A DNA stretch of 64,000 nt from the NCBI GenBank assembly GCA_020853615.1, contig JADYYO010000342.1:3172-67171 (forward strand), read 5' to 3'. The DNA is from Thermomicrobiales bacterium. Lineage in GTDB: Bacteria > Chloroflexota > Chloroflexia > Thermomicrobiales > UBA6265. The position numbers and the translations under genes were made by a program. The notes beneath the pieces are model-generated. The model saw only the letters and a list, made by a program, of their open reading frames with translations. It had not been told where the DNA came from and did not search any database. Shown one piece after another: positions 1 through 64,000 of the stretch. Numbering within the stretch: the stretch's first letter is position 1; each line of letters begins with the position of its first letter.

Positions 1-67
1 GGGCCGGGTCCGTGGCCTGCGTGGTCAGCTCGACGATGTCGCTGCCGGCGCGCCGGGCGGTGCTCAT
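1..67 (-). CDS. hypothetical protein, 5' end only (runs off left edge)
   Basis: ATG (cat 65-67) 10 nt after stop of 78-1055 gene with GAGG upstream; N-term MSTARRAGSDIVELTTQATDP. Confidence 0.4.
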   Translation of the reverse strand, partial: MSTARRAGSDIVELTTQATDPA

Positions 68-77
68 GGGCTAGGCC

Positions 78-1055
78 TCACGGGAGCCAGTCCAGGCCCT
101 GGTAGAACCGGATGAAGTCGATGTCGAACATCGTCGCGCCACCCGCGCCGTTGTTGCACCGGGCCCAGATCGCGACCGCGTTGATGCCCGCGAGGCCCGC
201 GTTCGTGTAGGTGCCCATGTAGATCTTGCCGCCGTCGTCGATGACCCAGGCCGCGTAGTCGGTCGAGTTGAGCTTCTGGAGCGCCAGGTACCCCGAGTAG
301 AACGCATAGTCGCTCCGGTTCGTCGTCGTCGCGTTCTGCCGCGTGCCCTCGCTGTTGTTGACGATCGTCGCGCCGTTGCGCCCCCAGAACAAGGGCTTGA
401 TCACGTTCGCGACCGCGCCCTCCTGCGTGTTGTTGAGGTTGATCGTCGCGTGCTTCGCGAAGCTGAAACCCGCGCCCGTGTCCTCGAAGAACGAGAGCCC
501 GATGTCGCTGTCGGCGGCCGCGGGCGCGGTCGCATTCTTCCAGCTGAAGCGGAACCGGCACCACGCGAGCAGCGCCGCGGGCGTCGCGCCGCCGAACGCG
601 GCGCTGTCGATCCGCTGCCAGATCCCGCCGAGACCTGCGGCGGGCTGCATCCGGAGCCACGTGTTCTGCGTGAGCGCGGCCGCGCTCGAGTTGTCCGGGT
701 CGCGCAGGTTCTCCCACGACGCGCGGTTCGTGACGATCGGGTTGACGTAGGGCGCCGGCCGGGTCGTGAAGTCCAGCGCGGTGAAGCCGGTCTGGAGCCA
801 GCTCGCGCTCAGCGCGTTCGTGTTGAACTCGTCGTCCGCGGCGTGCGGCGTGATCCGGGGCGCCCAGAGCTCGTTGAGCGTCGGCACCGGCGTGAGCTGC
901 GAGACCGTGCCGCCGCCGCCCATCGCAAAGAGCTGCGCGGTGCCGTTGACGCTTTTCGCGTAGAGCTGCGCCTGGCCCGCGACGACGCCGGGGTCGGCGA
1001 CGCGCGCGATCAGCTTGCCCAGCTTCGAGCCGGCCCGACGCAGGATCGAGCTCAT
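78..1055 (-). CDS. virion fibre/receptor-binding-like beta-sandwich protein (lectin/ConA-like?)
   Basis: Real start MSSILRRAGSKLG at 1055 (ATGA overlap with upstream stop). The first 117 codons of the tracked ORF are Arg/Gly junk. Beta-rich N/T/G-rich sequence at the end of the late operon. Confidence 0.65.
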   Translation of the reverse strand: MSSILRRAGSKLGKLIARVADPGVVAGQAQLYAKSVNGTAQLFAMGGGGTVSQLTPVPTLNELWAPRITPHAADDEFNTNALSASWLQTGFTALDFTTRPAPYVNPIVTNRASWENLRDPDNSSAAALTQNTWLRMQPAAGLGGIWQRIDSAAFGGATPAALLAWCRFRFSWKNATAPAAADSDIGLSFFEDTGAGFSFAKHATINLNNTQEGAVANVIKPLFWGRNGATIVNNSEGTRQNATTTNRSDYAFYSGYLALQKLNSTDYAAWVIDDGGKIYMGTYTNAGLAGINAVAIWARCNNGAGGATMFDIDFIRFYQGLDWLP

Positions 1056-1627
1056 GCCTCGTCCTGCACTTGGAGGTACGCCTCGACGTCCGTCGTGATC
1101 GGCGCGAACGCGCCGGTCGTGGTGATCGCGATGTCGAGCAGGTCGCCGGCGGCGTAGGTGTCGATGCCCGGCGCCTGCGTCACCTGCGTACCGCTGCCCG
1201 CGACGCTGGTCGCCGCCAGCGTCCCGGGCGCGCCGTTGACCCGCACGGTCAACGTCACCGAGCCCGCTGTGATGGCCTCGGAGAACCGGCTCACCAGCCC
1301 GACGATCGACCCCGCGCGCACCGCGCGCCAGGTCGCGAACAACTGCGACACGTTGGTCTCGAGCTGCACGTCGCTCTGCGAGGCCGCGACGTCCTGCTGG
1401 GCCCACATCTCGTTGGGCGTGTACCGAGCGCCGCCCAGCGCCATCCAGTCAGTGTCGGCCGCGCCGAACTTGACGTAGACCACGCCGGCGACGTTGTCCA
1501 TCGCCAGCGAGCCCAGGTCGGCCGCGAGCCCGCCGCCGGTGTTCGGCGCGGTCGCGACGCGCCGGACGTCGGCGCCGTCGGTCTTGGACCCGACGCGCAG
1601 ATGCCCGCTCGAGGCGTAGGCGGTCAT
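1052..1627 (-). CDS. fibre-associated beta-rich virion protein
   Basis: Start MTAYASSGHLRVGSK (cat 1625-1627), ATGA overlaps at both ends; only the last 191 aa of tracked ORF 1052-2902 look genuine. Confidence 0.65.
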   Translation of the reverse strand: MTAYASSGHLRVGSKTDGADVRRVATAPNTGGGLAADLGSLAMDNVAGVVYVKFGAADTDWMALGGARYTPNEMWAQQDVAASQSDVQLETNVSQLFATWRAVRAGSIVGLVSRFSEAITAGSVTLTVRVNGAPGTLAATSVAGSGTQVTQAPGIDTYAAGDLLDIAITTTGAFAPITTDVEAYLQVQDEA

Positions 1628-2943
1628 CAGATCCCTCCCTGGTGGAACACGCGGACGAGCTGCTCGGTGTCGGTGATCGGCAGGACCGGCGAGAAGTCGG
1701 TCCACGCGAACGTCCCGGCGTTGCCCAGCGACACGTCGCCCGAGCCGCCGGTGACGTCGGTCGAGCTGTCGGTCGTGACCGAGGCGTTGCGGATGCACTC
1801 GAGGCCGTAGTCGTTGCCGGTGCCGACCACGGTCGTCATGACCACCTCGAAGGAGCCCAGCACGTAGACGCCCGAGCCGGCGTTGTTGGTGCAGCGGACG
1901 CCGGCGATCGACCACGTGCCGAACCGGCACTGGATCGCGGCGCCGGTGCCGTTGCGCACCTCGGCTTGCGTGATCTCGGCCGCGAACTGGGACGTGCCCG
2001 AGCCGCCGCCGAGCGGCGAGCATGTGTCGAGCACGACCTGGTCGACGACCGCCCGGCCGCGCGTGCTGACGATGTTGAGATCGCGCCCGGCGACCTTCTG
2101 CAAGGTCGGGAACGCGCCCTCGAAGATCAGCCCGCCGTCGCGGATGACCGAGCCGTAGACCAGCACCTGCGCGCTGCCGCCGGCGAGGTGGAGCCCGTCG
2201 AGCTGGCACATCGTGAAGTCGACCGGCTGGTGCGCCCAGACCGTGAACGCCGCCGACTTGCTGGCGGCGGTCGACGCGAACGCCAGGCCCCGGAACGACC
2301 AGTCCGCCAGCGCGGCCAGGTGGATCGCGCCGTCGAGCCCCTGGGCCGGGTCGCCGTAGGTGATCGTCGCGCCCGGCGCGTAGGCCGTCGTCGCTGCCGC
2401 GAACGTCGTCGCGCTCGCGACGTAGATCGTGTTCGGCCCGGCGCCCGAGGTGTACCCGTTCTTGACGATCGGGCCCACGCCGCCGTCGACGTCGACCAGG
2501 ATCAGGTCGTCCAGAGCGCCGGGGGTGATCGCCTCGGCGACGGTGATCGTCGTCAGGTTCGTCGCCGGATCGGCGACCTGCGACGTGACCGTGAAGGCCT
2601 GCACGGGGGTCAGGTCGGCGCGGATCTGGACCTGGCGCCGGTTCGGCAGATCGGGCACGACGGGCGCGTTGTAGGTGTTGATCGTGCCGCCAAGGTCGGT
2701 GCCGCCCAGCTGCAGCAGTTCGGCGGCCGCGATCGTCATGCCGGTGACGTCGATGATCGACGGGCGGTTGGTCGCGTAGAGCGGCACCTCGCGCAGCGCG
2801 CGCTCGAGCGTCGCGAACGCGTCGAGCGCGCTCGTGCCGCTGTTGTTGTTGTCGCCGCCCGGCCGCACGTACCACGTGAGCGCGGCCTCGCCCACGGGCC
2901 ACGTGAGCGTGATGAGGCGGTTCGTCGCGAAGTCGCCTTGCAT
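1627..2943 (-). CDS. right-handed beta-helix (pectate-lyase-like) tailspike/fibre protein
   Basis: 438 aa with periodic short G/N/T/V-rich strands (NIVSTRG, VVLDTCS, IQCRFGT, VRCTNNAGSGVYV, IRNASVTT) typical of parallel beta-helix depolymerase spikes. Confidence 0.7.
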   Translation of the reverse strand: MQGDFATNRLITLTWPVGEAALTWYVRPGGDNNNSGTSALDAFATLERALREVPLYATNRPSIIDVTGMTIAAAELLQLGGTDLGGTINTYNAPVVPDLPNRRQVQIRADLTPVQAFTVTSQVADPATNLTTITVAEAITPGALDDLILVDVDGGVGPIVKNGYTSGAGPNTIYVASATTFAAATTAYAPGATITYGDPAQGLDGAIHLAALADWSFRGLAFASTAASKSAAFTVWAHQPVDFTMCQLDGLHLAGGSAQVLVYGSVIRDGGLIFEGAFPTLQKVAGRDLNIVSTRGRAVVDQVVLDTCSPLGGGSGTSQFAAEITQAEVRNGTGAAIQCRFGTWSIAGVRCTNNAGSGVYVLGSFEVVMTTVVGTGNDYGLECIRNASVTTDSSTDVTGGSGDVSLGNAGTFAWTDFSPVLPITDTEQLVRVFHQGGI

Positions 2944-2952
2944 GGAGATCCC

Positions 2953-4839
2953 CTACGGGCCGTTGAAGACGTCGAAGGTGATCACGTCGCCCAGCATGGG
3001 CGCCGTCGTGGTCTCGACGTCGAACGAGGCCGCGATCTTGGACGCGACGGCGATGCCGAACTGCCGGACGACCACGCCCAGCATGGAGCGCACCTGGTAG
3101 GTCGCGTCCGGCTGCGCGACAGGCAGCGTGACGGTGAACGCCTGGCCCTCGACGCCGGTCGCGGTGTACGTGAACGACTGCCAGTTCGTCGGCCCGGCGC
3201 CGACCGTCGCGACGATCGTCCAGTCCGAAACGCCGTCACTGACCAGCAGGAGCGCGCCGTTGGCCGGCACCCGGACCGCGCCGGCGGCGCCGCCGATCGT
3301 GTCGGCGCCGTTCGGCGTCACCGTCGCGACGCCGCCGCCGTGCTCCGAGACCAGGACGAAGCAGCCCGGGCCCGACAGGCCCTGCGCGGCCGCGCCGATC
3401 GCCGGGAGCGGTTGCGCGATCGCGCCGCCGCTCGCGTCGAGCCGCATCCAGAGGTTGAACGTCGCCGAGACCGGCGCCACCGCCGGCGCCAGCAGGTACG
3501 GCGTCGGCACCAGCGACGGCGCGACGTCGAGCCGGGGCGCGTCGATCGTGCCCAGCCAGTTCGGGTAGACGGTGTTGACCGTCGCCAGCGAGCTCGACGC
3601 CCGCTGCAGCGTCGCGCCGACCGCGCCCACCACCGCGGCCGGCACGGCGATCGCGCTCGCGCCCTCGGTACCGATGAAGACGGTCGCGCCTGCCGGCGCG
3701 TCGATCACCGGCCCGGCGACGAGCGCGCTCGCGCCGATCTGCGACGTCTCGTAGAGCTCGAAGACGACCGTGTCGCCCGGGCCCAGCGCCGCCAGGCCGA
3801 AGAACGGCTGGCCGCCGGTGACCGTCTCGAGGACGGCCCCGTGGAGCGTCACGATGCCGCCGTTCAGCAGGTCGATCACCGCTGGCGCCGTCGTGTTGAG
3901 GTTGGTGACCTGCAGGTAGCCCTGGAAGCGGCGCAGCCCGGCGAACGACGAGCCCTCGGCCAGCTCGACGAACGCGCCGAACCCGTCGGCGCGGCCCTCC
4001 CACGTCACGCCGGTCATGTTGTACGCGCCGGCGGGCACCACCGCTGGCGAGACGAACTGGTCGTCGAACTGGATCGTGTAGCAGCCGCCGCCGCTGGCGT
4101 CGGCGCGCAAGAGGCCCAGCGCCGTGATCAGGTCCGCCCACGTGTCGAACGTGCCCGGCCCGGCGCTGCCGCCGCCCGGCTGGTAGATCAGGCAGTTCGA
4201 GATGCCGGGCGTGCCGCCGCCACCGCCGCCACCGCCGGCGTCGTTGACCGCGCCCACGGCCGCCGTCGCGGTGAACGGGATGACCGCCTTGCGGCCGCTC
4301 ACGCGGACCCGCATGAAGTTGGCCGTGACGACCGCGCTCTGCTGGCCGCCGTAGTTGGCGAACGCGACGACCGGCGCGTACGCCACGCCGTCCTCGGACG
4401 CCTCGATCGTCAGCGTCACGCCCAGGAACGAGCCTGCCGTGATGAACGTGCAGTAGGAGCCCAGCGCGCTGACGTCGACGGCCGCGCCGACGCCGTTGTT
4501 GGCCGGCATCGGCAGCGCCGCGAACTGCGCGCCGATGTCGCTAGCGCCGACGTCGGCGTTGGCGGTGAACGTGACCGCGCTCTTGCGGCCCTCGACGTTC
4601 ACGCGCATGTAGCGCGCCGCCACCTCGAGCAGCCGGCGCTGGTCGCCGTTCTGGAACGTCGTCACCGGCGCGAAGCCGGTCGCGCCGCCGGCGTCCTGCG
4701 AGATCTCGATCGTGATCGTCGCGCCGGGGAAGTCGCCGCGCACCACCACGGTCTTGTCGCGGCCCATGCCGCTCACGTCCACGGCGGCGCCCGGCCCGTT
4801 GGCGACGGGCATCGGCAGGTCGGCGAACAGGTTGGCCAT
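2953..4839 (-). CDS. large fibre/spike protein with duplicated N-terminal domain
   Basis: Start MANLFADLPMP (cat 4837-4839); two ~98-aa homologous repeats, G8 linker, ~420-aa beta-rich C-terminal domain. Confidence 0.75.
   Translation of the reverse strand: MANLFADLPMPVANGPGAAVDVSGMGRDKTVVVRGDFPGATITIEISQDAGGATGFAPVTTFQNGDQRRLLEVAARYMRVNVEGRKSAVTFTANADVGASDIGAQFAALPMPANNGVGAAVDVSALGSYCTFITAGSFLGVTLTIEASEDGVAYAPVVAFANYGGQQSAVVTANFMRVRVSGRKAVIPFTATAAVGAVNDAGGGGGGGGTPGISNCLIYQPGGGSAGPGTFDTWADLITALGLLRADASGGGCYTIQFDDQFVSPAVVPAGAYNMTGVTWEGRADGFGAFVELAEGSSFAGLRRFQGYLQVTNLNTTAPAVIDLLNGGIVTLHGAVLETVTGGQPFFGLAALGPGDTVVFELYETSQIGASALVAGPVIDAPAGATVFIGTEGASAIAVPAAVVGAVGATLQRASSSLATVNTVYPNWLGTIDAPRLDVAPSLVPTPYLLAPAVAPVSATFNLWMRLDASGGAIAQPLPAIGAAAQGLSGPGCFVLVSEHGGGVATVTPNGADTIGGAAGAVRVPANGALLLVSDGVSDWTIVATVGAGPTNWQSFTYTATGVEGQAFTVTLPVAQPDATYQVRSMLGVVVRQFGIAVASKIAASFDVETTTAPMLGDVITFDVFNGP
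4246..4836 (-). repeat. in-frame tandem duplication of a ~98-aa domain (aa 2-99 / 101-198)
   Basis: FADLPMPVANGPGAAVDVS...YMRVNVEGRKSAVTFTANADVGA versus FAALPMPANNGVGAAVDVS...FMRVRVSGRKAVIPFTATAAVGA. Confidence 0.85.
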
Positions 4840-4843
4840 CGGG

Positions 4844-5161
4844 CTATCGCTTCTTCCGGTTCCGGCGGAGGATCGCACCGCCGACGAGCAACGCGACGCC
4901 GCCGAGCACGTACGGCAGCGCCCCGCGGCAGCAGCCGCCGGCCTGCGCGGTCAGGATCGCGCGGTTCTGGATCAGGTCGCCGCGGAACTGCATCGCCATC
5001 ATCTTGGGCGTCGCGATGACGTTGCCGGACTTGTCGACCGCGCCCAGCGACGCGCACGGCCGCCCCTGGGCGCAGGGCGCGCAGCACGCGCCCAACGACT
5101 CCTCCATCTGGCCGCGGGGTCCGACGTAGAGCCGGGCGCCCGGCGCGAGCATGTACGGCAT
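4844..5161 (-). CDS. small Cys-rich tail-anchored membrane protein
   Basis: Start MPYMLAPGARLY (ATGA overlap at 5161); ends GGCCRGALPYVLGGVALLVGGAILRRNRKKR. Confidence 0.65.
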   Translation of the reverse strand: MPYMLAPGARLYVGPRGQMEESLGACCAPCAQGRPCASLGAVDKSGNVIATPKMMAMQFRGDLIQNRAILTAQAGGCCRGALPYVLGGVALLVGGAILRRNRKKR

Positions 5162-6258
5162 CAGCGTGCTCCCTTCCGGCCGCGGGGCCGCGGGTTCGAC
5201 GTCGCCGCCTCGGCGCTGACGCGCCGCAGGTCGCGCACCAGCCGGTTCAGCGTCTGCGCGGCCGCGTTGGTGATCACGCGGCGGCGGTTGAGCGACGCGA
5301 TCCGCTCCTGGATCTCGGCGAAGTCGTGCGCGCCCTTGATCGCCTCGAGCATGTGCTCGGTGAGGCCGTTGGCGAGGCCCCGCCGGTTCTGGGCGTGGAC
5401 CTCGTCCTGCATCGCCACCATCTGGGCGTTCGTGAAGCCCGCGGGGTTGGCCATCGACCGCGGCGACCAGTCGACGCGCCACGCGTCCCGATCGTCGTCG
5501 GGCGAGGCGTCCAGCCATGCCTGGAAATGGATCCGCTTGAGCGGGAACGGCTTGTGGTTGTCGGTCCACGCGACGCCGGTGCCGAGCGCCTGCATCGCGA
5601 GCGCGTGCCCGAACAGGTCCGCGAGCCGGCTGGACGGCTTGCGCCCGTCGGCCTGGGCGGCCGTGCGGAACAGATCGGCGATCGGCTTGTCGTTGGCCTG
5701 CTCGTAGAGCTCGATCAGCGCCTGGCCGGCCTCAAGCGCCGAGCGCGGCGTCTCGCCGGCGGCGTCGTTCCAGTCGCCGCCGCCCGGCGCCAGCTCGCGC
5801 TGCTGGGCCTTGGGGAGCCCCTCGACCCAGTCGGCGAACGACGTCACCCAGATCGCCCGGGCCATGCCGTCCTTGATGTCGTCGTCGAAGTCGTCGGGGT
5901 TGTGGCGGGTCATCGGCTTGTTGCCCTTCCGGCGGGGATTGTCCTCGAGACGATCGCGCTCCATCTGCGGGCGCCAGTGCTTGATGTAGGCCAGCGCCCG
6001 GTCGCCCCATCCGCGCTGGTAGGACGCCCATGCCTTGTCGGGATCAAGCCCCTCGAAGTCGCCTTGATCGGCGATCCACCGCGCCTTCGTCGCTGGCGCC
6101 TTGACGTCGTAGGTCTGATCGAGGATGTCGTCCAGGAGCTGCGCGTCGGTGTAGCCAGGATGCTCGCGGAGCGCCTCACGCACGTCGTCCATATCGAAGA
6201 CGTTTTCTGCGTCGCGGACGCCGTCCTGATAGAAATGGTGGAGCGTGAGGCGGGCCAT
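5161..6258 (-). CDS. hypothetical virion-module protein (365 aa)
   Basis: Full tracked ORF with normal composition (W/D/E/K-rich, helical); C-terminus ...ATSNPRPRGRKGAR. Confidence 0.75.
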   Translation of the reverse strand: MARLTLHHFYQDGVRDAENVFDMDDVREALREHPGYTDAQLLDDILDQTYDVKAPATKARWIADQGDFEGLDPDKAWASYQRGWGDRALAYIKHWRPQMERDRLEDNPRRKGNKPMTRHNPDDFDDDIKDGMARAIWVTSFADWVEGLPKAQQRELAPGGGDWNDAAGETPRSALEAGQALIELYEQANDKPIADLFRTAAQADGRKPSSRLADLFGHALAMQALGTGVAWTDNHKPFPLKRIHFQAWLDASPDDDRDAWRVDWSPRSMANPAGFTNAQMVAMQDEVHAQNRRGLANGLTEHMLEAIKGAHDFAEIQERIASLNRRRVITNAAAQTLNRLVRDLRRVSAEAATSNPRPRGRKGAR

Positions 6259-6262
6259 GCTG

Positions 6263-6901
6263 CTAGCGCGCGAAGACGAGCGCGCCCCCCTGCCCGACCG
6301 GGCGGATCACGTTGTTCTCGATCACCACGTGGAAGTCGCAGATGTTGCCGAGGCGCTCGCGGTAGCGCGGGTCGATCTCCCACGTGCAGCGGAACGGCGT
6401 CGACACCGACAGCCGACCGCCGACGCCGGCCGGGAAGGCCTGCGCCATCTGCGCGTGCGTCCAGCCCGGGAACGCGGGCACGAACGGGCCCGGCTCGTAC
6501 GCCATCTGCTTCTGATCGGCGGTGACCCGGAGCGCGTTGCGCTCCGCGAACTCGCGCGCGAGGCAGTGCGGGCACAGCAGGTGGAGGTACATCGGCTGAT
6601 CGGGGAGCTGGTAGACGTCGATCTCGACGATCATCTCCTGCCCGCCGATCGCGTACAGGCACTTCGGGTGCCCGGCCGCGCTCTGGTTGAGCCGGTAGCC
6701 CGGCGCGACGCCGCGCGCGCTGCCACCGGTGGGGTCGGCGGCGTCGCCGGCGACGTGGAACGTCTCCTTGTAGCTGTCGGAAGGCTGCATGCGATCGACG
6801 GTACACCCGCGGGCGGACGCACGCACGGCGACGGCCGCGAGGGCCCAGGCGCTTGCCAGGGCCAGCAGCACGATCGTCACGAGGTGCGGACGCGCGGGCA
6901 T
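6263..6901 (-). CDS. secreted protein with N-terminal signal peptide
   Basis: MPARPHLVTIVLLALASAWALAAVAVRASARGC...; CPHC motif; 4-nt gap to the upstream gene. Confidence 0.75.
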   Translation of the reverse strand: MPARPHLVTIVLLALASAWALAAVAVRASARGCTVDRMQPSDSYKETFHVAGDAADPTGGSARGVAPGYRLNQSAAGHPKCLYAIGGQEMIVEIDVYQLPDQPMYLHLLCPHCLAREFAERNALRVTADQKQMAYEPGPFVPAFPGWTHAQMAQAFPAGVGGRLSVSTPFRCTWEIDPRYRERLGNICDFHVVIENNVIRPVGQGGALVFAR

Positions 6902-6909
6902 GGACGAGC

Positions 6910-7245
6910 TCAGCGGCGGCGGCGAGCCGGGTTCTTGCGCTTGCGCAGGAGCAGCGCGCCGGCGACGACCGCGACGCCGCCGACCGCGACGGGGACCACC
7001 CAGCCCGGCATGCCGCCGCGCTGCTGCAGCGCCGCCTGCTGCTGCGCCGCGATCTGCTGGTAGGCCTGCGCCTGGCCGGCCGACTGCTGGCCGGACGAGT
7101 ACACCGAGACGGCCGCCTTCGCGCCCGACTTGATGAAATCGCCGATCTTGTCCAGCACGCCGTCCAGCCCGGTGGGCGTGGGGCCGCCGTAGCCGCGCCG
7201 GGCGATCAGCTCGGTGGGGCCGTTGGTGGGTTGGAAGTAGGACAT
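6910..7245 (-). CDS. tail-anchored membrane protein with NPARRRR terminus
   Basis: Start MSYFQPTNGP (cat 7243-7245); Gln-rich middle; ends VAVGGVAVVAGALLLRKRKNPARRRR. Confidence 0.7.
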   Translation of the reverse strand: MSYFQPTNGPTELIARRGYGGPTPTGLDGVLDKIGDFIKSGAKAAVSVYSSGQQSAGQAQAYQQIAAQQQAALQQRGGMPGWVVPVAVGGVAVVAGALLLRKRKNPARRRR

Positions 7246-7261
7246 GGCCGAGCTCCTTCGA

Positions 7262-7825
7262 TCAGCGCTTGCGCTTGGTGATGGTGCGGTACAGCACGAC
7301 GCCGCCGGCGGCGGCGCCCGCCCAGATCCACCACGGCAGCTTCTTCGGTGCCGGGGCGGCGGGTTCGGCGCTGGCCTTCGTCGGGATCTCGTCGATCTCG
7401 TCGTAGAACCCGCCGCCGCCACCGCCGCCACCGCCGCCCGAGGCGGGACGCCCGGGCTGGGGCGCGACCGTGCCCGGCGTGACGCTGGTCGACGTCGACA
7501 GCGCCGGGCGGCCGGGCTGCGCCTTGACCGGCGTCAGGGTCTGGAGCGGCGGGAGCGTCGTCAGCCGAGGCGGCTTGGGCGCCGGGAGCGCGGGCATCCC
7601 GCGCGGCCGGGGCACCGGGAACGCGACGGTCACGAGCGTCCGCGGCCCCGTGCCCGAGCCGCCGCTGGCGCCCGAGCCCGAGTCCTGGCCCGGTCCGCCC
7701 TGGTTGATCGCGCCGAGCGCGCGCCGGCCGCGCAGCATCGGCGCCGGCGCCGAACGCGGGGCGGGTGCGTGCGCGGCGATCGCGCCAGCGCCCTGGGTGC
7801 GATCGAGGAAGTAGTCCTGGCTCAT
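7262..7825 (-). CDS. Pro/Gly-rich tail-anchored membrane protein
   Basis: Start MSQDYFLDRTQ (cat 7823-7825, ATGA overlap); G10 tract; ends LPWWIWAGAAAGGVVLYRTITKRKR. Confidence 0.65.
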   Translation of the reverse strand: MSQDYFLDRTQGAGAIAAHAPAPRSAPAPMLRGRRALGAINQGGPGQDSGSGASGGSGTGPRTLVTVAFPVPRPRGMPALPAPKPPRLTTLPPLQTLTPVKAQPGRPALSTSTSVTPGTVAPQPGRPASGGGGGGGGGGFYDEIDEIPTKASAEPAAPAPKKLPWWIWAGAAAGGVVLYRTITKRKR

Positions 7826-8160
7826 GCGCTCCTCCGTCGACGGCCGCTGGCGTAGCCCAGGGCGAACAGGCCGACCACGACCGCGGCGGCGCCGACGGGC
7901 ACGACCCACGGCCGCTCCCGCACCCAGACGACGGCCTCGAGCGGCTTGACCGCCGAGCACAGCCCGATGCCCTTGGTGGGCGGCTTGGGCGGCGCCGGCG
8001 GCTGGCCCGGCCGGGCGGGCGCCTGCCCGCGCTGCTCCGCGGCGTGCAGGCGCAGCACGAGCGTCGCGACGCGATCGAGGCACGGATCGGTGACGATCGC
8101 GTTGGTCGCGCTCAGGACGTCGGCGATGCCGCTCATCGGCTGGTGGGTGACGTAGGGCAT
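7822..8160 (-). CDS. tail-anchored membrane protein
   Basis: Start MPYVTHQPMSG (cat 8158-8160); ends PWVVPVGAAAVVVGLFALGYASGRRRRSA. Confidence 0.65.
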   Translation of the reverse strand: MPYVTHQPMSGIADVLSATNAIVTDPCLDRVATLVLRLHAAEQRGQAPARPGQPPAPPKPPTKGIGLCSAVKPLEAVVWVRERPWVVPVGAAAVVVGLFALGYASGRRRRSA

Positions 8161-8288
8161 GGGCTGGTAGGCAGGGGCGCGGGCCGCTCGAGGCACCCGG
8201 CGACGATGAAGCGTTGGCAGCTCTCCCGTTCTGTTCAACGACCCGGCGTCGGCCGGTTGCCTCCAGGGGCCCCCGCGGGGGTCACGGT

Positions 8289-8978
8289 TCAGGGGAGGGC
8301 CTTCTTGGGCTTGAGCGCGCCGGTCAGGCGCTCGCGGGCGCCCAGCTTGTCCCAGACGAACCAGCCCACGGCGACGACGCCGCCGATCTTGAGCCAGAAC
8401 CCCGAGTCCGTACACTTGCCGCTCTTGATGCACTCGTAGTGCTCGCGCTCCTCGGCGGTCTGGGCGCGCGACCGGATCAGCGTCGTCAGCACGAGCGCGA
8501 TCGCGCCGACGACGATGACGGCCGGCCAGAGCCAGACGAAGCCGACGTCCTGGGGCTGCGTCGCCTCGCCGGGCAGGCGCCCGCTGATCGCGATCTGCGC
8601 CAGCTTGACCGCGGCCTCGGGATCCCGGCGGAGGTCCGGAGCCGGCAGTTGGCGGGCGTCGAAGACTTCGCCCAGGAGCTGGTAGAGGTGCTCGGCCAGC
8701 GGCTGCTCGTCGGCCATGCGCTCGCGCTGGAGCTTCGTGCGGAGCACCGGCGCCGGCGGCGCCACCGCGCCCGGCCGGCGCAGGAGCGCGTCGGGCACGG
8801 GCTGGCCGCTGGCGACGCGATCATTGATCCGCCGGTAGCGCAGCCACCGCTCGAGCCCGCGCCGCATCTGCTGGAGCTCGACGCGGGCGCGCTGCGCCTG
8901 CGCCGGCGTGACCGGGGTGGTCGCGTCGGCCGGGACGTCGAGTCCCATGGCGTAGGAGGGGGCCGCGTAGATCGACAT
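8289..8978 (-). CDS. two-TM membrane protein
   Basis: Start MSIYAAPSYAMG (cat 8976-8978); helices VGFVWLWPAVIVVGAIALVLTTLI and FWLKIGGVVAVGWFVW. Confidence 0.7.
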   Translation of the reverse strand: MSIYAAPSYAMGLDVPADATTPVTPAQAQRARVELQQMRRGLERWLRYRRINDRVASGQPVPDALLRRPGAVAPPAPVLRTKLQRERMADEQPLAEHLYQLLGEVFDARQLPAPDLRRDPEAAVKLAQIAISGRLPGEATQPQDVGFVWLWPAVIVVGAIALVLTTLIRSRAQTAEEREHYECIKSGKCTDSGFWLKIGGVVAVGWFVWDKLGARERLTGALKPKKALP

Positions 8979-9009
8979 GGCGAAGGCCTTGCTCGCGCGA
9001 ACGCGCGGG

Positions 9010-9648
9010 CTACAGGTTGACGATCTTGTAGCCGGGGAAGCCGACCCAGAGGACGCCGGCGGTGGTGGCCACCTCCTCGCCGCCGCCCGGGTTGAAGACG
9101 ATCCGCTCAAAGGTCGGCGTGAACCGCACGACCGAGTTGGGCGCGAACAGCGTCGGCACCGGCAGCGGAATCGCGTTGTCGGGCCGAGACAGGATCGGCG
9201 CGACCGGCGCGTTCTGGAACTCGCGCTGCGAGCCACCGTCGGTCACCTCGTAGCTGATGTCGATCAGGTCGGTGCCGAGCTCCTGGGTCGGCAGCGGCCA
9301 CGTCGAGACCGGCCGCCACGCGCCGAAGTTGGTCGCGTTCTCGGGCTCGGTCGGACGCCAGATCGCCATCGGGTAGTGCGTCGCGATGAACGGGCCGTCC
9401 TGCGAGATCTCGAAGCGCATCGCGGTGGCGCGCGTGCCGGCCACGTCATCGTTGAACGGGAGCACGGCGCAGAGCGTGTAGAAGATCCGCCGGCCCGGGA
9501 TCGAGTCGATCTGCTGCGTGATCGACTGGGGCTGGTTCTGCAGCGCGCTCACCAGCTCGTTGTAGCGAGCGGCGATCTGCGCCATCTGCTGCTGCTGCAC
9601 CTTCTGGCGCTGCAGCAACTGGCGGACGACAACTTCGACGTTGGCCAT
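9010..9648 (-). CDS. beta-rich virion protein, capsid candidate (N-terminal Gln-rich coiled coil)
   Basis: Start MANVEVVVRQLL (cat 9646-9648); strand-patterned sequence, no TM segment; adjacent to a second beta-rich protein. Confidence 0.75.
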   Translation of the reverse strand: MANVEVVVRQLLQRQKVQQQQMAQIAARYNELVSALQNQPQSITQQIDSIPGRRIFYTLCAVLPFNDDVAGTRATAMRFEISQDGPFIATHYPMAIWRPTEPENATNFGAWRPVSTWPLPTQELGTDLIDISYEVTDGGSQREFQNAPVAPILSRPDNAIPLPVPTLFAPNSVVRFTPTFERIVFNPGGGEEVATTAGVLWVGFPGYKIVNL

Positions 9649-9793
9649 CGGACACTCCCGGCAGGGGTTGGCAGGCGAACCTGCCCTCCGCACCGACACG
9701 GTGCGGGTGGGCGCCTGGACGCATCAGCGGCCGAGGCGCGGAAGATGGACGCCCGGGGCGTCGGCCAGATCGACCGACGCCCGGGCGGGTGCG

Positions 9794-10369
9794 CTACTGC
9801 GCGTCGCGGGTCTGCAGGCCGTCGATCAGGTACATGATGACCATCTGATCGTCGGTGGCCGCGCCGTTGATCAGGTCGAGCACGTTGGTCGTCCCGACCG
9901 CGAAGAACTCGGCGTTGACCGAGATGTTCTGGCGGACCGGGATGATGATCGGACGCGCCAGCTTGAGGATGGCGGTCTGGCTCGGGTCGCCGTTGTTGAG
10001 CACCGAGTCGGCGGCGTCGAAGCCCGCGATGCCACCGCCGGCCGGGAAGTACCAGCACGGCGCGACGAACTGCGGCTTGTCGCCGAGCGTCAGCGTGAAG
10101 TACAGCTGCGACACCGTCTGCAGGTACAGATCGCGGTGGTTGGTGCCGTCGAAGTACAGCCACGCGCGGAGCGCGAGGATGACGTAGGTCTGGTCGCTCG
10201 CGAGCTGACCGGGGACCTGGAGGTTGGTGCGGTCCAGCTGGCCGACGTTCGCGTTGCCGAACAGGCGGGTGCTGGGACCGACCGCGGGGGTGGGCGAGCC
10301 GGTGCTGCGGACCAGAGTGTCCCAGACGGGCTGGTGGCGGCGCTCGCGGACTCCGTGCAGGCGGGGCAT
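9794..10369 (-). CDS. beta-rich virion protein, capsid candidate
   Basis: Start MPRLHGVRERR (cat 10367-10369); alternating-hydrophobic strands (YVILALRAWLYFDG, LYFTLTLGDK, IIIPVRQNISVNAEFFAV). Confidence 0.75.
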   Translation of the reverse strand: MPRLHGVRERRHQPVWDTLVRSTGSPTPAVGPSTRLFGNANVGQLDRTNLQVPGQLASDQTYVILALRAWLYFDGTNHRDLYLQTVSQLYFTLTLGDKPQFVAPCWYFPAGGGIAGFDAADSVLNNGDPSQTAILKLARPIIIPVRQNISVNAEFFAVGTTNVLDLINGAATDDQMVIMYLIDGLQTRDAQ

Positions 10370-10527
10370 GACATTCTCCTCGTGACGAATCGGTGCCCGG
10401 GATGGGCGGGTGGCCCCGCACATGCGGGGCCGGTGGGCGAGGTGTCGACGAGGAGGAGCGAAGAAAGGCCGGGCGGAGCGTCACCGGCCGGCGCGCCCGG
10501 AGGCGCCGGCGGTCCGGGGGCGGCTGA

Positions 10528-11862
10528 TCAGCCGCCGAAGCCGCCGGCGAAGACGCCGCCGTACAGGTTGCGCGGGTTGTCGTAGGCGGCCGACGCGTTC
10601 GGGATCGCCTTGGTGAACGAGCGGGCCGGCACCGCCTCGAGCGCGGGCATCTGCTTGATCGGCGCGAGCAGGTTGCCCTGGCGCTGGCCGCCCAGGTACG
10701 CGTCGGCGCCCAGCTCCTCCTCGAGCCCCAGCTCCTCCTCGACCTGGCCCAGCTCCTCCTCGGCACCGACCTCGAGGTAGTCGCCCACCTCGACGTAGTC
10801 GCCCATCGTGATGTTGTCGTCGATCGGCGGCGCGCCGTTGACGCCGACGTAGTCGCCCAGGCCGTCCGCGTAGACGTCGCCCAGGCCGATCTTGGCCTTC
10901 ACCGAGGCCGGCGCGATCGCCGACAGCGCGTTGTCGAGCAGGTTGAGGCCGAGGCCGATCATCACCGAGGTGCGGTACTTGGCCAGCTTGGCCACCTTCT
11001 TGGTGGCGAAGTGACCGATCACGCCCAGGCCGATCGCCATCGCGGTGCCCTGCCACTGGCTCGGGAGCCGGTTGATGAGCGGCACGCGCGAGGCCAGCGT
11101 GTACGACGCCGCGCGGGCGCCGTACAGCGAGACCGCGATCGGCACCACCTGGGTCAGCGTGTCCATGAACACGCCGGCCGGGTTCGAGCGCATCCGGTAG
11201 CGCCGGATCGTCGCGCGGCCGAGCGCGGTCTTGTAGCGGTTGCGGATCGCCCGGCGGGCGCGGAGGATGCTCCGCTGCGTCGACGGCCGCGGGTTGCGGC
11301 GGTAGCGCCGGCGGCGGGCGTGGCTGCGCATCCGGCGCGCCGGGTTCCGCCGGCGGCGCCGGCGGGGCGCGTGGCTCGCGGCGGCGTTGTGGCGCCGGCG
11401 GCGGCGCCGGCGGGGCGCCGGGTTGGCGCGGCCCTCGGTCATCGCGACGGCGCGGCGGCGCCGGGCGCGGGTGCGGCGCGCGCGCCGGGCGTGCGGGCGG
11501 GTGCCGGGGCGGACGCGCCGGCGCGCCCGGGTGCGGGTCCGGCTGCGCCGGCGGCGCCGCTTCGGGGCGGACGTGCGGGCGGTCGCGCGCCGCTTGCGGC
11601 GGCGGCTGGTGGACGGGCGGCGCCGAGAGGCACCACGGCGCCGCTTCGTCTTGGCTCGCTTGCGGGCGTGCGCGAGAGCGGCAGCGCCATGGAGCTTCTT
11701 CCGGGCCATGTTCTTCTTCCTCCGAGGACGAGTGGGTGCGGCCGAGGTGGCCGCGCGCGACCGGCGGCCGTACCGGCCCCAGTCCTTGTGCGAGGTGGAC
11801 GCGCGCTTACCCCGTGCGTGCTTCCGGGGAGCCGGGGCGGGGTTCACGTAGGTGAGCGGCAT
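10528..11862 (-). CDS. protamine-like Arg-rich / membrane / acidic tripartite protein
   Basis: Full ORF. G/C third positions and AAG Lys codons persist through the Arg-rich half. Alternative start at 11709 (MARKKLHG, AGGAAG upstream). Confidence 0.75.
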   Translation of the reverse strand: MPLTYVNPAPAPRKHARGKRASTSHKDWGRYGRRSRAATSAAPTRPRRKKNMARKKLHGAAALAHARKRAKTKRRRGASRRRPSTSRRRKRRATARTSAPKRRRRRSRTRTRARRRVRPGTRPHARRARRTRARRRRAVAMTEGRANPAPRRRRRRRHNAAASHAPRRRRRRNPARRMRSHARRRRYRRNPRPSTQRSILRARRAIRNRYKTALGRATIRRYRMRSNPAGVFMDTLTQVVPIAVSLYGARAASYTLASRVPLINRLPSQWQGTAMAIGLGVIGHFATKKVAKLAKYRTSVMIGLGLNLLDNALSAIAPASVKAKIGLGDVYADGLGDYVGVNGAPPIDDNITMGDYVEVGDYLEVGAEEELGQVEEELGLEEELGADAYLGGQRQGNLLAPIKQMPALEAVPARSFTKAIPNASAAYDNPRNLYGGVFAGGFGG

Positions 11863-11921
11863 GGTTCTCTCTGGACCTCGAGACGCGGGTTGTCACCCGC
11901 ATCGACCGTGGGAGAGAACAC
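11863..11921 (-). promoter_or_regulatory. structured 5' leader (nested hairpins) abutting the start of the Arg-rich gene
   Basis: GTTCTCTC (11864-11871) pairs with GAGAGAAC (11912-11919); inner hairpin GCGGGT-TGTC-ACCCGC (11885-11900). Confidence 0.4.
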
Positions 11922-11981
11922 GGAGCGCGACGATGCACTGGGATGTTGATCTGATCTCCCCCAGCGTGTCAAGGCCCGCGC

Positions 11982-14275: not shown

Positions 14276-14279
14276 CGGC

Positions 14280-62679: not shown

Positions 62680-62717
62680 CCCGAACCACCTCACCCCACT
62701 CCGAAGGACTCTCCCCG

Positions 62718-63272
62718 ATGAAGATCTACGCCGCCTCCTCGTGGCGCAACCCGTGGCAGCAGCCCGTGGTCGCGCACCTCCGCTCGCTCGGCCACGACGT
62801 CTACGACTTCCGCAACCCGCCCACCGGGAGCGGGTTTGGCTGGCGTGAGCTCGATCCGAACTGGCAGCGGTGGTCGCCCACCGAGTACCGCCAGAACCTC
62901 GAGAAGCCCCGGGCCCGCGAGGGGTTCGAGAGCGACTTCAAGGCGATGCGCGAGTGCGACGCCTGCGTGCTGATCCAGCCGTGCGGCACCAGCGCCCACC
63001 TCGAGCTGGGCTGGTGCGCCGGCGCCGGCCGCCACACCGCGGTCTACTTCCCGCTCGACACCCGGGCCGACCTGGCCAGCGTCGGGCACACGGGCTCGGC
63101 CACCGGCGGAACCACCGGGATCCCCTGCGGCGCCTGCGGCGACATGGAGGGGTGCCACCTGCCGGCCAAGCTCCACCGGATCGAGCCCGAGCTGATGGTC
63201 AAGCTGGCCGACGCGCTGCTCCTGGGCCGCGTCGAGCTCGAGGACTGGCTCAAGAAGGTCGACCGGCGGTGA
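62718..63272 (+). CDS. nucleoside 2-deoxyribosyltransferase-like (Rossmann-like) protein
   Basis: MKIYAASSWRNPWQQ..., MRECDACVLIQPCGTSAHLELGWCAGAGRHTAVYF (sD..v...p...s.G...ElG.a pattern) with a Cys-containing insertion. Confidence 0.5.
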   Translation: MKIYAASSWRNPWQQPVVAHLRSLGHDVYDFRNPPTGSGFGWRELDPNWQRWSPTEYRQNLEKPRAREGFESDFKAMRECDACVLIQPCGTSAHLELGWCAGAGRHTAVYFPLDTRADLASVGHTGSATGGTTGIPCGACGDMEGCHLPAKLHRIEPELMVKLADALLLGRVELEDWLKKVDRR

Positions 63273-63691
63273 ACTGCTGCGCGATCCACGGCGGCGACGC
63301 GGACCCGGCCACGCTGGCCCGGGTCGAGCACCCGCGTGCGGCGAAGCCGTACCGCTGTTGCGAGTGCGCCGCCGTGATCGATCGCGGCGAGCGCCACGAG
63401 CACTACACGCTGCTGTCGGAAGGCGGTTGGGACACGTACCGGACGTGCCTGTCGTGCGTCGAGATCCGGACGCACTTCGCCTGCGACGGATGGCTGTTCG
63501 GCGAGATCTGGAACGATCTGGCCGACGAGTTCCTCCCCAACCTGCGCGCCGGCGGCCCGTGTCTCGAGGGCCTGAGCCCCGCGGCCCGCGCCCGGCTGTT
63601 CGAGCTGCACCTCGCGCTCAAGGCCGAGGTGCCGCACTGGACGCGCGCCCACAAGCCCGATCCGGGCGACAAGCACTGGAGCCACCGATGA
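63269..63691 (+). CDS. Cys-rich protein (140 aa)
   Basis: GTGA overlap; VNCCAIHGGDADPATLARVEHPRAAKPYRCCECAAVIDRGERHEHY...CLSCVEIRTHFACDG. Confidence 0.6.
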   Translation: MNCCAIHGGDADPATLARVEHPRAAKPYRCCECAAVIDRGERHEHYTLLSEGGWDTYRTCLSCVEIRTHFACDGWLFGEIWNDLADEFLPNLRAGGPCLEGLSPAARARLFELHLALKAEVPHWTRAHKPDPGDKHWSHR

Positions 63692-64000
63692 CCACGCACA
63701 CGATCCCACCCCGCGATCCGCTCGCCGACGAGGCGACGATCGCCGCGCTCCGCGACCTGCACGCCGCCCTGGTCGGGCGGACCGCGCTCCTCGAGCGCAA
63801 GATCGCCGACGCCGACCAGCGGCACGTCGTCGAGCGCGCCAACGCCGAGCTCTGGGGCATCATGCGGGTGCTGCAGGCGGCCAACGCGCTGCGCACCTAC
63901 CCCGACCAGCCCGCGGGGGAGCCGCCCGGCTACAACATGGGCGTCGTCCAGTGGCAGCACCTCGCGCACGAGGGCTACGCGATGATGCGCGAGCTGCTCG
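63688..64000 (+). CDS. hypothetical protein, 5' part only (runs off right edge)
   Basis: ATGA overlap; MTTHTIPPRDPLADEATIAALRDLHAALVGRTALLERKIADADQRH...; no stop before the window end. Confidence 0.6.
   Translation, partial: MTTHTIPPRDPLADEATIAALRDLHAALVGRTALLERKIADADQRHVVERANAELWGIMRVLQAANALRTYPDQPAGEPPGYNMGVVQWQHLAHEGYAMMRELL

What the first reader, a model, noticed from the sequence alone, without database searches (positions are those of the whole stretch)
1..64000. 64 kb of phage-like DNA without any recognisable terminase, portal, HK97 capsid, tape measure or intact P-loop NTPase
I scanned every plausible product for GxxxxGK[ST] and found none. The only AAA+-like protein (25037-25834) has SPGLGAS in place of the Walker A motif. 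No product has the size or composition of a large terminase, portal, tape measure, sheath or ~350-aa capsid protein. Either those genes lie outside the window, which would make the element well over 64 kb, or morphogenesis uses unfamiliar components.
Basis: inference. Interest (0 to 1): 0.55.

Follow-up and report, generated by a model that had tools for sequence, protein, structure and literature searches.

The report
Large motor-less, membrane-containing bacterial virus
This 64-kb stretch is most of the genome of a widespread, uncultivated bacterial virus with 72-92 kb genomes that carries no recognisable tailed-phage parts and no P-loop motor protein at all, so it probably builds its particle and loads its DNA in an unfamiliar way.

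Summary
I called 94 genes (90% coding). None contains [AG]xxxxGK[ST]. Pfam, PHROGs and NCBIfam find no terminase, portal, HK97 capsid, tape measure or packaging ATPase. The ComM-like protein does have a dead Walker A (K to A).

The "genes lie outside the window" option is largely excluded. I reconstructed a complete relative (81,143 bp, a circular permutation of an 86-kb contig that has a 32-bp end overlap). I also read about 10 kb of the arc missing from the window in the window's own lineage. Neither holds a P-loop NTPase or a tailed-phage hallmark.

The window belongs to a large metagenomic lineage. Contigs top out at 69-92 kb, and there is no match in GenBank phages or PLSDB plasmids.

Its conserved core has these parts:
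- two adjacent, highly conserved small proteins (191 and 212 aa) predicted as jelly-roll beta-sandwiches;
- a protamine-like protein encoded just upstream of them;
- at least seven tail-anchored membrane proteins with poly-Arg/Lys tails;
- a transglutaminase-like protein;
- modular spikes and a holin-endolysin cassette.

Best reading: a non-tailed, membrane-containing virus whose DNA is condensed by basic proteins rather than pumped in by an ATPase. This is functionally like archaeal SPV1, but in bacteria and with a genome four times larger. The capsid assignment is tentative.

The parts
78..20892 (-). Virion/morphogenesis module, 27 co-oriented genes, nearly all orphans
   Evidence: GC3 gene calls. 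The block is syntenic in more than 20 related contigs. No Pfam or PHROG structural hit.
9794..10369 (-). Candidate major capsid protein 1 (191 aa), the most conserved gene of the lineage
   Evidence: More than 674 homologues, 72-100% identical in the top 120 and all about 191 aa. 446 clusters at 50% identity. AF2 model has pLDDT 74 and pTM 0.73 and is a beta-sandwich. Foldseek hits are weak but enriched in single-jelly-roll capsid proteins: SH1, P23-77 VP16, HHIV-2, SPV1 VP4 and CRESS capsids.
9010..9648 (-). Candidate capsid protein 2 (212 aa), adjacent to MCP1 and the second most conserved gene
   Evidence: More than 418 homologues. 46-51% identical in IMG/VR relatives. AF2 pLDDT 83.7: a 36-residue N-terminal helix plus an 8-stranded sandwich. 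Foldseek gives only weak jelly-roll matches to influenza HA heads.
10528..11862 (-). Protamine-like basic protein (444 aa): Arg-rich N-terminal half, hydrophobic middle, acidic C-terminus. Proposed DNA-condensing core protein.
   Evidence: 95 R+K against 3 D+E in the first 245 residues. The gene immediately upstream of MCP1 has 49-65 R/K per 100 aa in 16 of 17 closer relatives, with K replacing R in some.
17071..17673 (-). Transglutaminase-like (Cys-His-Asp) core protein, a possible maturation protease or cross-linker
   Evidence: Pfam Transglut_core E 2e-4, 22 bits against a cut-off of 23. 40-46% identical in relatives.
17713..19629 (-). 638-aa coiled-coil and low-complexity protein, a possible scaffold or membrane organiser
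   Evidence: Only coiled-coil-type weak hits. Conserved at 28-36% identity.
4844..17051 (-). Set of tail-anchored membrane proteins (4844-5161, 6910-7245, 7822-8160, 13949-14275, 14280-14804, 14816-15523, 16014-17051): a C-terminal TM helix followed by a poly-Arg/Lys tail
   Evidence: Hydropathy census. PG_binding_3 domain in 14816-15523.
78..4839 (-). Host-recognition genes: 628-aa spike with a duplicated ~95-aa N-terminal domain (2953-4839), 438-aa beta-helix-like protein (1627-2943), and 191- and 325-aa distal proteins
   Evidence: The N-terminal duplication is 49% identical, E 2e-27. The same N-terminal domain heads different fibres in relatives. The region downstream of 78-1055 varies between strains. 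'Beta-helix' is my reading of the sequence, not a tool result.
33059..36452 (+). Second conserved structural cluster: membrane-anchored SLT transglycosylase (33059-33679), 208-, 305-, 127- and 88-aa orphans, and a paralogue of MCP1 (35889-36452)
   Evidence: SLT E 4e-12. hhalign of the MCP1 profile against 35889-36452 gives probability 85%, E 6e-6, 37% identity over 86 columns. The cluster is conserved in the 81-kb relative.
31196..31771 (+). Holin (LLH family)
   Evidence: Pfam Phage_holin_6_1 E 9e-8; PHROG holin.
39320..42118 (.). Cell-wall and envelope enzymes: M23 peptidase (39320-39937, +), GDSL esterase (40574-41188, +), PG-binding plus 3D-domain protein (41189-42118, -)
   Evidence: Pfam and PHROGs.
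43976..47203 (.). Lysogeny and replication control: tyrosine integrase (43976-44833, -), HTH repressor-like protein (45993-46301, +), DnaA_N-domain protein (46298-47203, +)
   Evidence: Pfam Phage_integrase, HTH_31 and DnaA_N; PHROG integrase and repressor.
25037..25834 (+). Truncated ComM/Mg-chelatase-type AAA+ protein with an inactivated Walker A. Accessory, not core.
   Evidence: Pfam Mg_chelatase E 3e-14. Alignment to ComM 8rxd. No homologue in the 81-kb relative.
48290..50790 (+). C5-cytosine and Dam-type N6-adenine DNA methyltransferases
   Evidence: Pfam E 6e-37 and 1e-51.

Best explanation
What it is. The window is about 80-90% of the genome of an uncultivated, probably temperate, non-tailed virus of bacteria. 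It belongs to a large lineage whose genomes map as circles of about 72-92 kb.

Proposed virion. The outer shell is built from small jelly-roll proteins: the 191-aa and 212-aa products, plus a paralogue that could serve at vertices. Beneath it lies a lipid membrane populated by many tail-anchored viral proteins. Modular spikes share a common N-terminal attachment domain.

Proposed DNA loading. No P-loop motor translocates the genome into a preformed shell. Instead the DNA is condensed by a conserved protamine-like protein, helped by the poly-Arg/Lys tails of the membrane proteins. Membrane and shell then close around this nucleoprotein.

Replication. The virus relies on host enzymes. It has a DnaA_N-domain protein and ParB-like proteins but no polymerase, helicase or primase.

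Release. Exit is by holin plus several peptidoglycan hydrolases.

Shown: gene content; absence of the hallmark genes across a complete relative and across the lineage's own flanks; conservation pattern; beta-sandwich predictions; charge and TM architecture; circular permutation.

Inferred: that the two small proteins form a capsid; that there is an internal membrane; that DNA is packaged by co-condensation.
For: Absence of hallmarks in the window.

Absence in a complete relative. The 81,143-bp IMG/VR contig was rebuilt from seven overlapping loci with 0 conflicts. It is colinear with, and circularly permuted relative to, an 86,414-bp contig that has a 32-bp end overlap. It has no Walker A in any coding-like ORF. 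PHROGs on its non-window genes give only an epimerase, M23 peptidase, endolysin, phosphatase, methyltransferase, TnpB and a weak tailspike match.

Absence in the window's own lineage outside the window.

Genome form. Two independent assemblies (72,394 and 72,386 bp) are 100% identical over 12.8 kb but start at different points. The longest of 150 JGI relatives are 71-92 kb and none is larger.

Conserved core and its ranking, with MCP1 at 59-68% and the 212-aa protein at 46-51% identity.

Jelly-roll predictions and their enrichment for capsid proteins of membrane-containing viruses, including SPV1 VP4.

Basic protein conserved in position and in charge but not in sequence.

Tail-anchored proteins.

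Bacterial host. The peptidoglycan-directed enzymes are SLT, M23, PG-binding and 3D domains, together with a holin.

Precedent. SPV1 and FLiP have jelly-roll capsids and lack packaging ATPases (PMC8812541). The SPV1 virion is a jelly-roll shell, then lipid, then a nucleoprotein core (PMC8459092).
Against: - The fold matches are weak: Foldseek E about 1e-3 to 1e-2, TM 0.2-0.5, and pLDDT 74 for MCP1. The 212-aa protein matches no capsid protein at all.
- No particle, proteome or lipid data exist, so 'capsid' and 'internal membrane' rest on conservation, size, gene order and analogy.
- About 1 kb of the non-window arc in the 72-kb genome, and about 2.5 kb if the window's own genome is 80 kb, were not read.
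- My gene calls on the 65% G+C relative cover only 71% of it. The gaps were inspected and hold only small ORFs.
- An ASCE-fold ATPase with a non-canonical P-loop, or a non-P-loop ATPase, cannot be excluded without modelling every orphan.
- Neutralising 72-80 kb of DNA would need on the order of a thousand or more copies of the basic protein. That is my own arithmetic and is untested.
Confidence: 0.55

Rival explanations
1. It is an ordinary tailed phage (Caudoviricetes). Its terminase, portal, HK97 capsid and tail genes would be either outside the window or too diverged for profile HMMs.
For: The window has integrase, repressor, RusA, holin/endolysin, methyltransferases and Lar, which is a typical temperate-phage accessory set. 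Terminase Walker A motifs can be deviant.
Against: - A complete 81-kb relative and the lineage's own flanks also lack these genes.
- No unassigned ORF has the size of a large terminase or a portal.
- Three HMM libraries are negative.
- The structural block is dominated by small membrane-anchored proteins, which tailed phages do not have.
- The two most conserved proteins are 191 and 212 aa beta-sandwiches.
Confidence: 0.05
2. It is a capsid-less or pleomorphic enveloped element. That could be a pleolipovirus- or plasmavirus-like virion, or a plasmid that spreads in membrane vesicles. Basic protein would condense the DNA and a membrane studded with spikes would wrap it. The two small conserved proteins would be matrix or spike components rather than an icosahedral shell.
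For: - Many membrane proteins and a protamine-like protein.
- No packaging ATPase.
- ParB-like partition proteins and an integrase.
- The capsid fold assignment is weak.
Against: - A holin plus several murein hydrolases point to lytic release of particles assembled inside the cell.
- The MCP1 family has capsid-like traits: extreme conservation, constant length, and loop insertions in some members.
- Jelly-roll capsid proteins are enriched among its structural neighbours.
- There is no hit in 72,556 plasmids.
Confidence: 0.2
3. It is a satellite or dependent element. It would borrow the capsid and packaging machinery of a co-infecting helper virus, which would explain why it encodes none.
For: Absence of all packaging hallmarks. 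Presence of an integrase and repressor.
Against: - Genomes of 72-92 kb are far larger than known satellites.
- About 20 kb is spent on a conserved, syntenic, apparently structural module with spikes and lysis genes.
- No integrated copy was seen. Every long contig found is virus-sized and free-standing: none of the 80 listed JGI loci lies on a contig above 92 kb, and the 6 GTDB hits lie on contigs of at most 84 kb.
Confidence: 0.07

Closest known systems
Portogloboviridae (Sulfolobus polyhedral virus 1, SPV1)
   Same: Proposed architecture and logic: a single-jelly-roll shell, an inner lipid layer with many small membrane proteins, circular dsDNA condensed by a basic protein into a nucleoprotein core, no packaging ATPase, no polymerase, and glycosyltransferase and methyltransferase genes (PMC8459092, PMC8812541). 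SPV1 VP4 is among the structural neighbours of MCP1 (PDB 6oj0, probability 0.89; BFVD, probability 0.97).
   Different: - SPV1 infects a hyperthermophilic archaeon, has a 20-kb genome and is non-lytic.
- This lineage is bacterial (peptidoglycan hydrolases), has 72-92 kb genomes and carries a lysis cassette.
- There is no sequence similarity, and TM-scores are only 0.36.
- The basic protein here is a 430-560-aa Arg/Lys-rich protein with a hydrophobic middle and an acidic end, unlike VP1.
Helvetiavirae: Sphaerolipoviridae-type viruses (P23-77, IN93, SH1, HHIV-2, HCIV-1)
   Same: Two adjacent small capsid-protein genes. Internal-membrane icosahedral design. Some members infect bacteria (Thermus). 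SH1, HHIV-2 and P23-77 VP16 are among the structural neighbours of MCP1. There are temperate members.
   Different: - All known members encode an FtsK-HerA packaging ATPase next to the capsid genes. None is present here.
- Their genomes are 16-31 kb.
- The 212-aa protein shows no match to the large MCPs.
Caudoviricetes (tailed phages)
   Same: Genome size. The accessory gene set: integrase, repressor, RusA, Lar, methyltransferases, holin and endolysin.
   Different: No terminase, portal, HK97-fold capsid, protease/scaffold, tail tube or tape measure. No P-loop protein at all.
FLiP and the ATPase-less double-jelly-roll virus group known from metagenomes
   Same: Jelly-roll capsid viruses of prokaryotes that lack a packaging ATPase (PMC8812541).
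   Different: Those have double-jelly-roll MCPs and small genomes (9 kb of ssDNA for FLiP). Here the candidate MCPs are single sandwiches of about 190-210 aa and the genome is about 80 kb of dsDNA.

Membership tests
Caudoviricetes | Large terminase subunit (ASCE ATPase plus nuclease) | tested here: not met
   No Pfam, PHROG or NCBIfam hit. No Walker A in the window, in the complete 81-kb relative or in the lineage's own flanks.
Caudoviricetes | Portal protein and HK97-fold major capsid protein | tested here: not met
   No profile hit. No unassigned ORF of portal size. An HK97 fold among the 300-aa orphans was not excluded by structure prediction.
Caudoviricetes | Tail genes (tube, tape measure, baseplate) | tested here: not met
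   The only matches to tape-measure families fall on the M23 peptidase domain of 39320-39937 or on a coiled coil.
Helvetiavirae (Sphaerolipoviridae-like) | Two vertical single-jelly-roll major capsid proteins encoded side by side | tested here: inconclusive
   Two adjacent conserved beta-sandwich proteins are present. MCP1 has weak matches to SH1, HHIV-2 and P23-77 MCPs (E about 1e-2, TM 0.3-0.4). The 212-aa protein has none.
Helvetiavirae (Sphaerolipoviridae-like) | FtsK-HerA superfamily genome-packaging ATPase | tested here: not met
   No P-loop protein anywhere in the window, its flanks or a complete relative.
Portogloboviridae | Single-jelly-roll capsid proteins homologous to VP4/VP10 | tested here: inconclusive
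   6oj0_A: probability 0.89, E 2e-2, TM 0.36. BFVD VP4: probability 0.97, E 5e-3. No sequence similarity.
Portogloboviridae | Nucleoprotein core inside an inner membrane, with no packaging ATPase | not testable with these tools
   Only indirect support: a conserved protamine-like protein, tail-anchored basic-tailed membrane proteins, and absence of an ATPase.
Bamfordvirae (PRD1/PM2-like double-jelly-roll viruses) | Double-jelly-roll MCP and A32-like ATPase | tested here: not met
   No profile hit. The candidate MCPs are single sandwiches of 191 and 212 aa. No ATPase.
Conjugative or mobilisable plasmid / ICE | Relaxase, type IV coupling protein, VirB4-type ATPase | tested here: not met
   No such Pfam hits and no P-loop proteins. 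MCP1 is absent from PLSDB.

The most novel reading that the evidence does not exclude
This is a founding member of a previously undescribed high-rank group of bacterial dsDNA viruses. Genomes are 70-90 kb and encode no P-loop NTPase of any kind: no packaging motor, helicase or recombinase ATPase. The capsid proteins would be unrelated, or only anciently related, to known jelly-roll MCPs. The genome would be encapsidated by charge-driven co-condensation with a protamine-like protein inside a viral membrane, a packaging mode not known for any bacterial dsDNA virus of this size.
Probability: 0.35. Interest if true: 0.9.

Novelty: new variant of a known kind. Interest (0 to 1): 0.78.

Why it matters
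Nearly every known dsDNA virus above about 20-30 kb uses a P-loop ATPase to load its genome, and most carry further P-loop enzymes. P-loop NTPases are also the commonest protein fold in genomes.

A widespread bacterial virus lineage with 72-92 kb genomes and none at all would show three things:
- Motor-independent encapsidation scales to large genomes.
- The SPV1-type 'shell, membrane, nucleoprotein' design, so far known only from archaea, also exists in bacteria.
- Hallmark-gene-based virus detection and classification miss a common component of soil, sediment and groundwater viromes.

It also gives concrete proteins to test: MCP candidates, a protamine-like DNA condenser and a transglutaminase-like factor.

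Tried and rejected
- Megablast of 25 kb against GenBank phages: no match. tblastn of MCP1, the 212-aa protein and the transglutaminase-like protein against phages, and of MCP1 against plasmids: no match.
- tRNA scan, Rfam and tandem repeats: nothing informative.
- Repeat, promoter and terminator scans of the larger intergenic regions (20.9-21.5, 44.8-45.6 and 50.8-51.4 kb): only short chance-level repeats, and no att-like or iteron array I could defend.
- A single-protein scan of IMG/VR with the 305-aa orphan found nothing.
- Walking a contig with exact DNA patterns yields only about 3.4 kb per scan, so I switched to protein-anchored walking.
- A profile of MCP1 against PDB sequences gave only chance hits.
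- Exact-protein look-ups with genes at the window ends returned only short Logan contigs. The window's own full contig, possibly the 80,077-bp NCBI MAG contig, could not be fetched.
- The Walker-like string AKALHGKS in a ParB-like flank protein was rejected because the orthologue reads GKP.
- I considered the ComM-like protein as a cryptic motor. I rejected it because its Walker A lysine is lost, it is truncated, and it is absent from the 81-kb relative.
- Host assignment from MAG bins stays a hint only. The bins are Gemmatimonadota (3), Thermomicrobiales, Kofleriaceae, Galbitalea and Kiloniellales.
- Two literature searches aimed at finding a prior description, like the broader first search, found no account of this lineage.
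Full report
**1. Checking the observation**

The window is 72% G+C with no tRNA. Raw ORF lists are therefore swamped by spurious frames. A GC3 frame-plot caller gave 94 genes covering 90% of the window, with no gap above 580 bp.

None of the 94 products contains [AG]xxxxGK[ST]. The six-frame translation of the whole window has only three matches. Two lie in 68-codon non-coding frames and one in a 100-aa ORF.

All 94 products were scanned against Pfam-A and PHROGs, as concatenated chunks. Key orphans were also scanned alone against Pfam at relaxed threshold and against NCBIfam. There is no terminase, portal, capsid, tape-measure, sheath or packaging-ATPase family. Only about 20 products hit anything:
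- Lysis and cell wall: holin, SLT, M23 peptidase, GDSL esterase, PG-binding/3D protein.
- Lysogeny and DNA handling: tyrosine integrase, HTH repressor, DnaA_N protein, ParB_N protein, RusA.
- Modification and other: C5 and Dam methyltransferases, GT4, nucleoside deoxyribosyltransferase, and a ComM/Mg-chelatase fragment.

That fragment (25037-25834) aligns to ComM (8rxd).

**2. What the window belongs to**

The 191-aa product of 9794-10369 has more than 674 homologues in metagenomes. The top 120 are 72-100% identical and almost all are exactly 191 aa. A full HMMER scan of 1.84 billion representatives finds 446 clusters at 50% identity. Some of these have N-terminal extensions or large loop insertions.

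The structural block around this gene is syntenic in every contig fetched.

Contig lengths cluster at virus size:
- ENA: 72,394 and 72,386 bp.
- NCBI MAG: 80,077 bp.
- IMG/VR: 75-86 kb.
- GTDB MAGs: 69-84 kb, binned variously as Gemmatimonadota (3), Galbitalea and Kiloniellales.
- JGI metagenomes: the ten longest contigs among the 80 listed loci (of 150 relatives detected) are 39-92 kb, with none larger.

The two 72-kb ENA contigs come from different samples. They are 100% identical over 12.8 kb yet start at different points.

There is no similarity to 50,697 GenBank phage records or to 72,556 plasmids. Two literature searches aimed at a prior description, like the broader first search, did not find this lineage described.

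**3. Are the missing genes outside the window?**

I walked the whole IMG/VR contig IMGVR_UViG_3300048623_000062 (81,143 bp) in seven overlapping loci with zero conflicts. It is colinear with an 86,414-bp contig. Each contig's ends fall inside the other, and the 86-kb contig has a 32-bp terminal overlap. Both are therefore complete, circular-mapping genomes.

In the 81-kb genome:
- No coding-like ORF carries a Walker A.
- The gaps in my calls hold only small ORFs.
- Every product of 400 aa or more is either homologous to a window protein or otherwise explained: epimerase, ParB-like, TnpB-like transposase, beta-helix protein and a 688-aa protein. The 688-aa protein is my assignment as a receiver-domain protein, read from its sequence.
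- PHROGs on the genes with no window homologue show no head, packaging or ATPase family.

For the window's own lineage I obtained three pieces:
- 10 kb to the right of the window (L062, 94% nucleotide identity to the window);
- 3.9 kb to the left (L013, 98% identity);
- the non-window arc of the 72-kb genome, except about 1 kb (L059 plus L003).

These regions encode ParB-like proteins, a 5'-3' exonuclease, Lar, HTH regulators, a kinase-like protein and a 1,066-aa Ig-domain protein. The precomputed Pfam calls and a PHROG scan show nothing else. The element is larger than 64 kb, but the hallmarks are not in the remainder.

**4. Anatomy of the conserved core**

Across IMG/VR relatives the best conserved genes are the 191-aa protein (59-68% identity) and its neighbour, the 212-aa protein (46-51%). 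A set of small structural-block proteins follows, then the transglutaminase-like protein (40-46%; Transglut_core E 2e-4) and a 638-aa coiled-coil protein.

AlphaFold2 with family alignments predicts the following:
- The 191-aa protein is a beta-sandwich (pLDDT 74, pTM 0.73).
- The 212-aa protein is a long N-terminal helix plus an eight-stranded sandwich (pLDDT 84).

Foldseek finds no significant match for either. The neighbours of the 191-aa model are nonetheless enriched in single-jelly-roll capsid proteins of membrane-containing viruses: SH1, HHIV-2, P23-77 VP16 and SPV1 VP4, together with CRESS and nodavirus capsids. The 212-aa model only resembles jelly-roll heads of influenza HA.

A paralogue of the 191-aa protein lies at 35889-36452 (hhalign probability 85%). 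It sits in a second conserved cluster with a membrane-anchored SLT.

Immediately upstream of the 191-aa gene, 16 of 17 closer relatives encode a 430-560-aa protein with 49-65 Arg/Lys per 100 residues followed by an acidic end. Charge is conserved, not sequence. In the window this protein has 95 R+K against 3 D+E in its first 245 residues.

At least seven structural-block proteins are C-terminal TM anchors followed by poly-Arg/Lys tails.

The spike gene (2953-4839) starts with a duplicated ~95-aa domain. The same domain also heads different fibres in relatives. The distal genes vary between strains.

**5. Mechanism proposed**

Taken together, this is the parts list of a non-tailed, membrane-containing virion, not of a tailed phage or a conjugative element.

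With no P-loop protein in a complete genome, ATP-driven translocation by a virus-encoded motor is unlikely. The conserved protamine-like protein and the basic cytoplasmic-side tails suggest that the DNA is neutralised and condensed as nucleoprotein. Membrane and shell would then assemble around it.

Release would be lytic: holin plus SLT, M23 and 3D-domain hydrolases, all directed at peptidoglycan and hence at a bacterial host.

Replication must be host-driven. There is a DnaA_N protein, two ParB-like proteins, an exonuclease and RusA, but no polymerase, helicase or primase.

These mechanistic steps are inference. The gene content, the absences, the conservation, the predicted folds and the charge architecture are shown.

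**6. Comparison with known systems**

The closest functional analogue is SPV1 (Portogloboviridae). It has a single-jelly-roll shell, an inner lipid layer with many small membrane proteins and a nucleoprotein core. It lacks a packaging ATPase and a polymerase. But SPV1 is archaeal, has a 20-kb genome and is non-lytic, and homology to it is not established.

Helvetiavirae share the arrangement of two adjacent small MCP genes. They are defined also by an FtsK-HerA ATPase, which is absent here. Membership of Caudoviricetes, Bamfordvirae and conjugative plasmids fails on defining features.

I therefore file this conservatively as a new variant of the 'jelly-roll shell, membrane and nucleoprotein, motor-less' kind. 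I give a substantial chance (about 0.35) that it is a categorically new virus group.

**7. Caveats**

- The capsid assignment rests on weak structural similarity plus conservation and gene order.
- About 1-2.5 kb of the window lineage's genome was not seen.
- Non-canonical ATPases cannot be excluded without modelling all orphans.
- A pleomorphic, capsid-less virion or a helper-dependent life style remain possible.

Noticed in passing
window 2953-4839 (-): The 628-aa spike begins with a tandem duplication of a ~95-aa domain (residues 5-99 against 106-197, 49% identity, E 2e-27). The same domain heads otherwise unrelated fibre genes in the 81-kb relative (272-aa and 829-aa proteins). This suggests a shared virion-attachment module with swappable distal parts.
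   Followed up: partly
window 10528-11862 (-) and the gene upstream of MCP1 in L003-L049: The protamine-like block (49-65 R/K per 100 aa) is conserved in position and in charge but not in sequence. Some relatives use Lys instead of Arg. An acidic C-terminal region with GDY-type repeats always follows.
   Followed up: partly
window 46298-47203 (+), 29053-29853 (+), 57979-58581 (+); flank loci L059 and L062: No DNA polymerase, helicase or primase appears in the window, its flanks or the complete relative. The replication and recombination set is a DnaA_N-domain protein, two ParB-like proteins, a 5'-3' (FEN-type) exonuclease and RusA.
   Followed up: partly
window 25037-25834 (+): A truncated ComM/Mg-chelatase AAA+ protein with the Walker A lysine replaced (SPGLGAS) but Walker B intact. 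It has no homologue in the 81-kb relative, so it is an accessory and probably decayed gene.
   Followed up: yes
window 64000 and 76; loci L001 and L002: A Logan contig from run SRR11294031 ends exactly at window position 64000, and another ends at position 76. The window's right end therefore probably coincides with an assembly break rather than an arbitrary cut.
   Followed up: no
window 54367-55206 and 54942-56171 (+): My call for the 279-aa gene overlaps the GT4 gene by 265 nt. The homologue in the relative is only 168 aa, so the true gene probably ends earlier and its Ser/Thr/Pro-rich tail is likely an out-of-frame read-through.
   Followed up: no
P0335 (482 aa), P0373 (427 aa), and P0352/P0371/P0384/P0399/P0423/P0437 (263-313 aa): Distant members of the MCP1 family carry large insertions between conserved N- and C-terminal segments, or 100-160-aa N-terminal extensions. 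The N-terminal RERxxQ/W..(F/Y)D and the C-terminal TRDV motifs stay fixed. This pattern is typical of capsid proteins with surface 'tower' insertions.
   Followed up: no
81-kb relative, positions 75069-77030 (-): The related genome carries a 653-aa TnpB-like (IS605-family OrfB, zinc-ribbon) gene that is absent from the window.
   Followed up: no
L031, L029, L036, L032 (IMG/VR contigs of 195, 104, 110 and 97 kb): Distant MCP1 homologues (23-43% identity) sit on larger contigs. None has a Walker A protein within 10 kb of the MCP gene either. Whether these are bigger viruses of the same kind or integrated copies was not examined.
   Followed up: no
contig names: Relatives occur in Hainich groundwater 0.1-um-fraction assemblies as well as in many JGI metagenome assemblies whose source environments I could not decode. 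Three GTDB hits are binned with Gemmatimonadota MAGs, which is a possible but unproven host clue.
   Followed up: no
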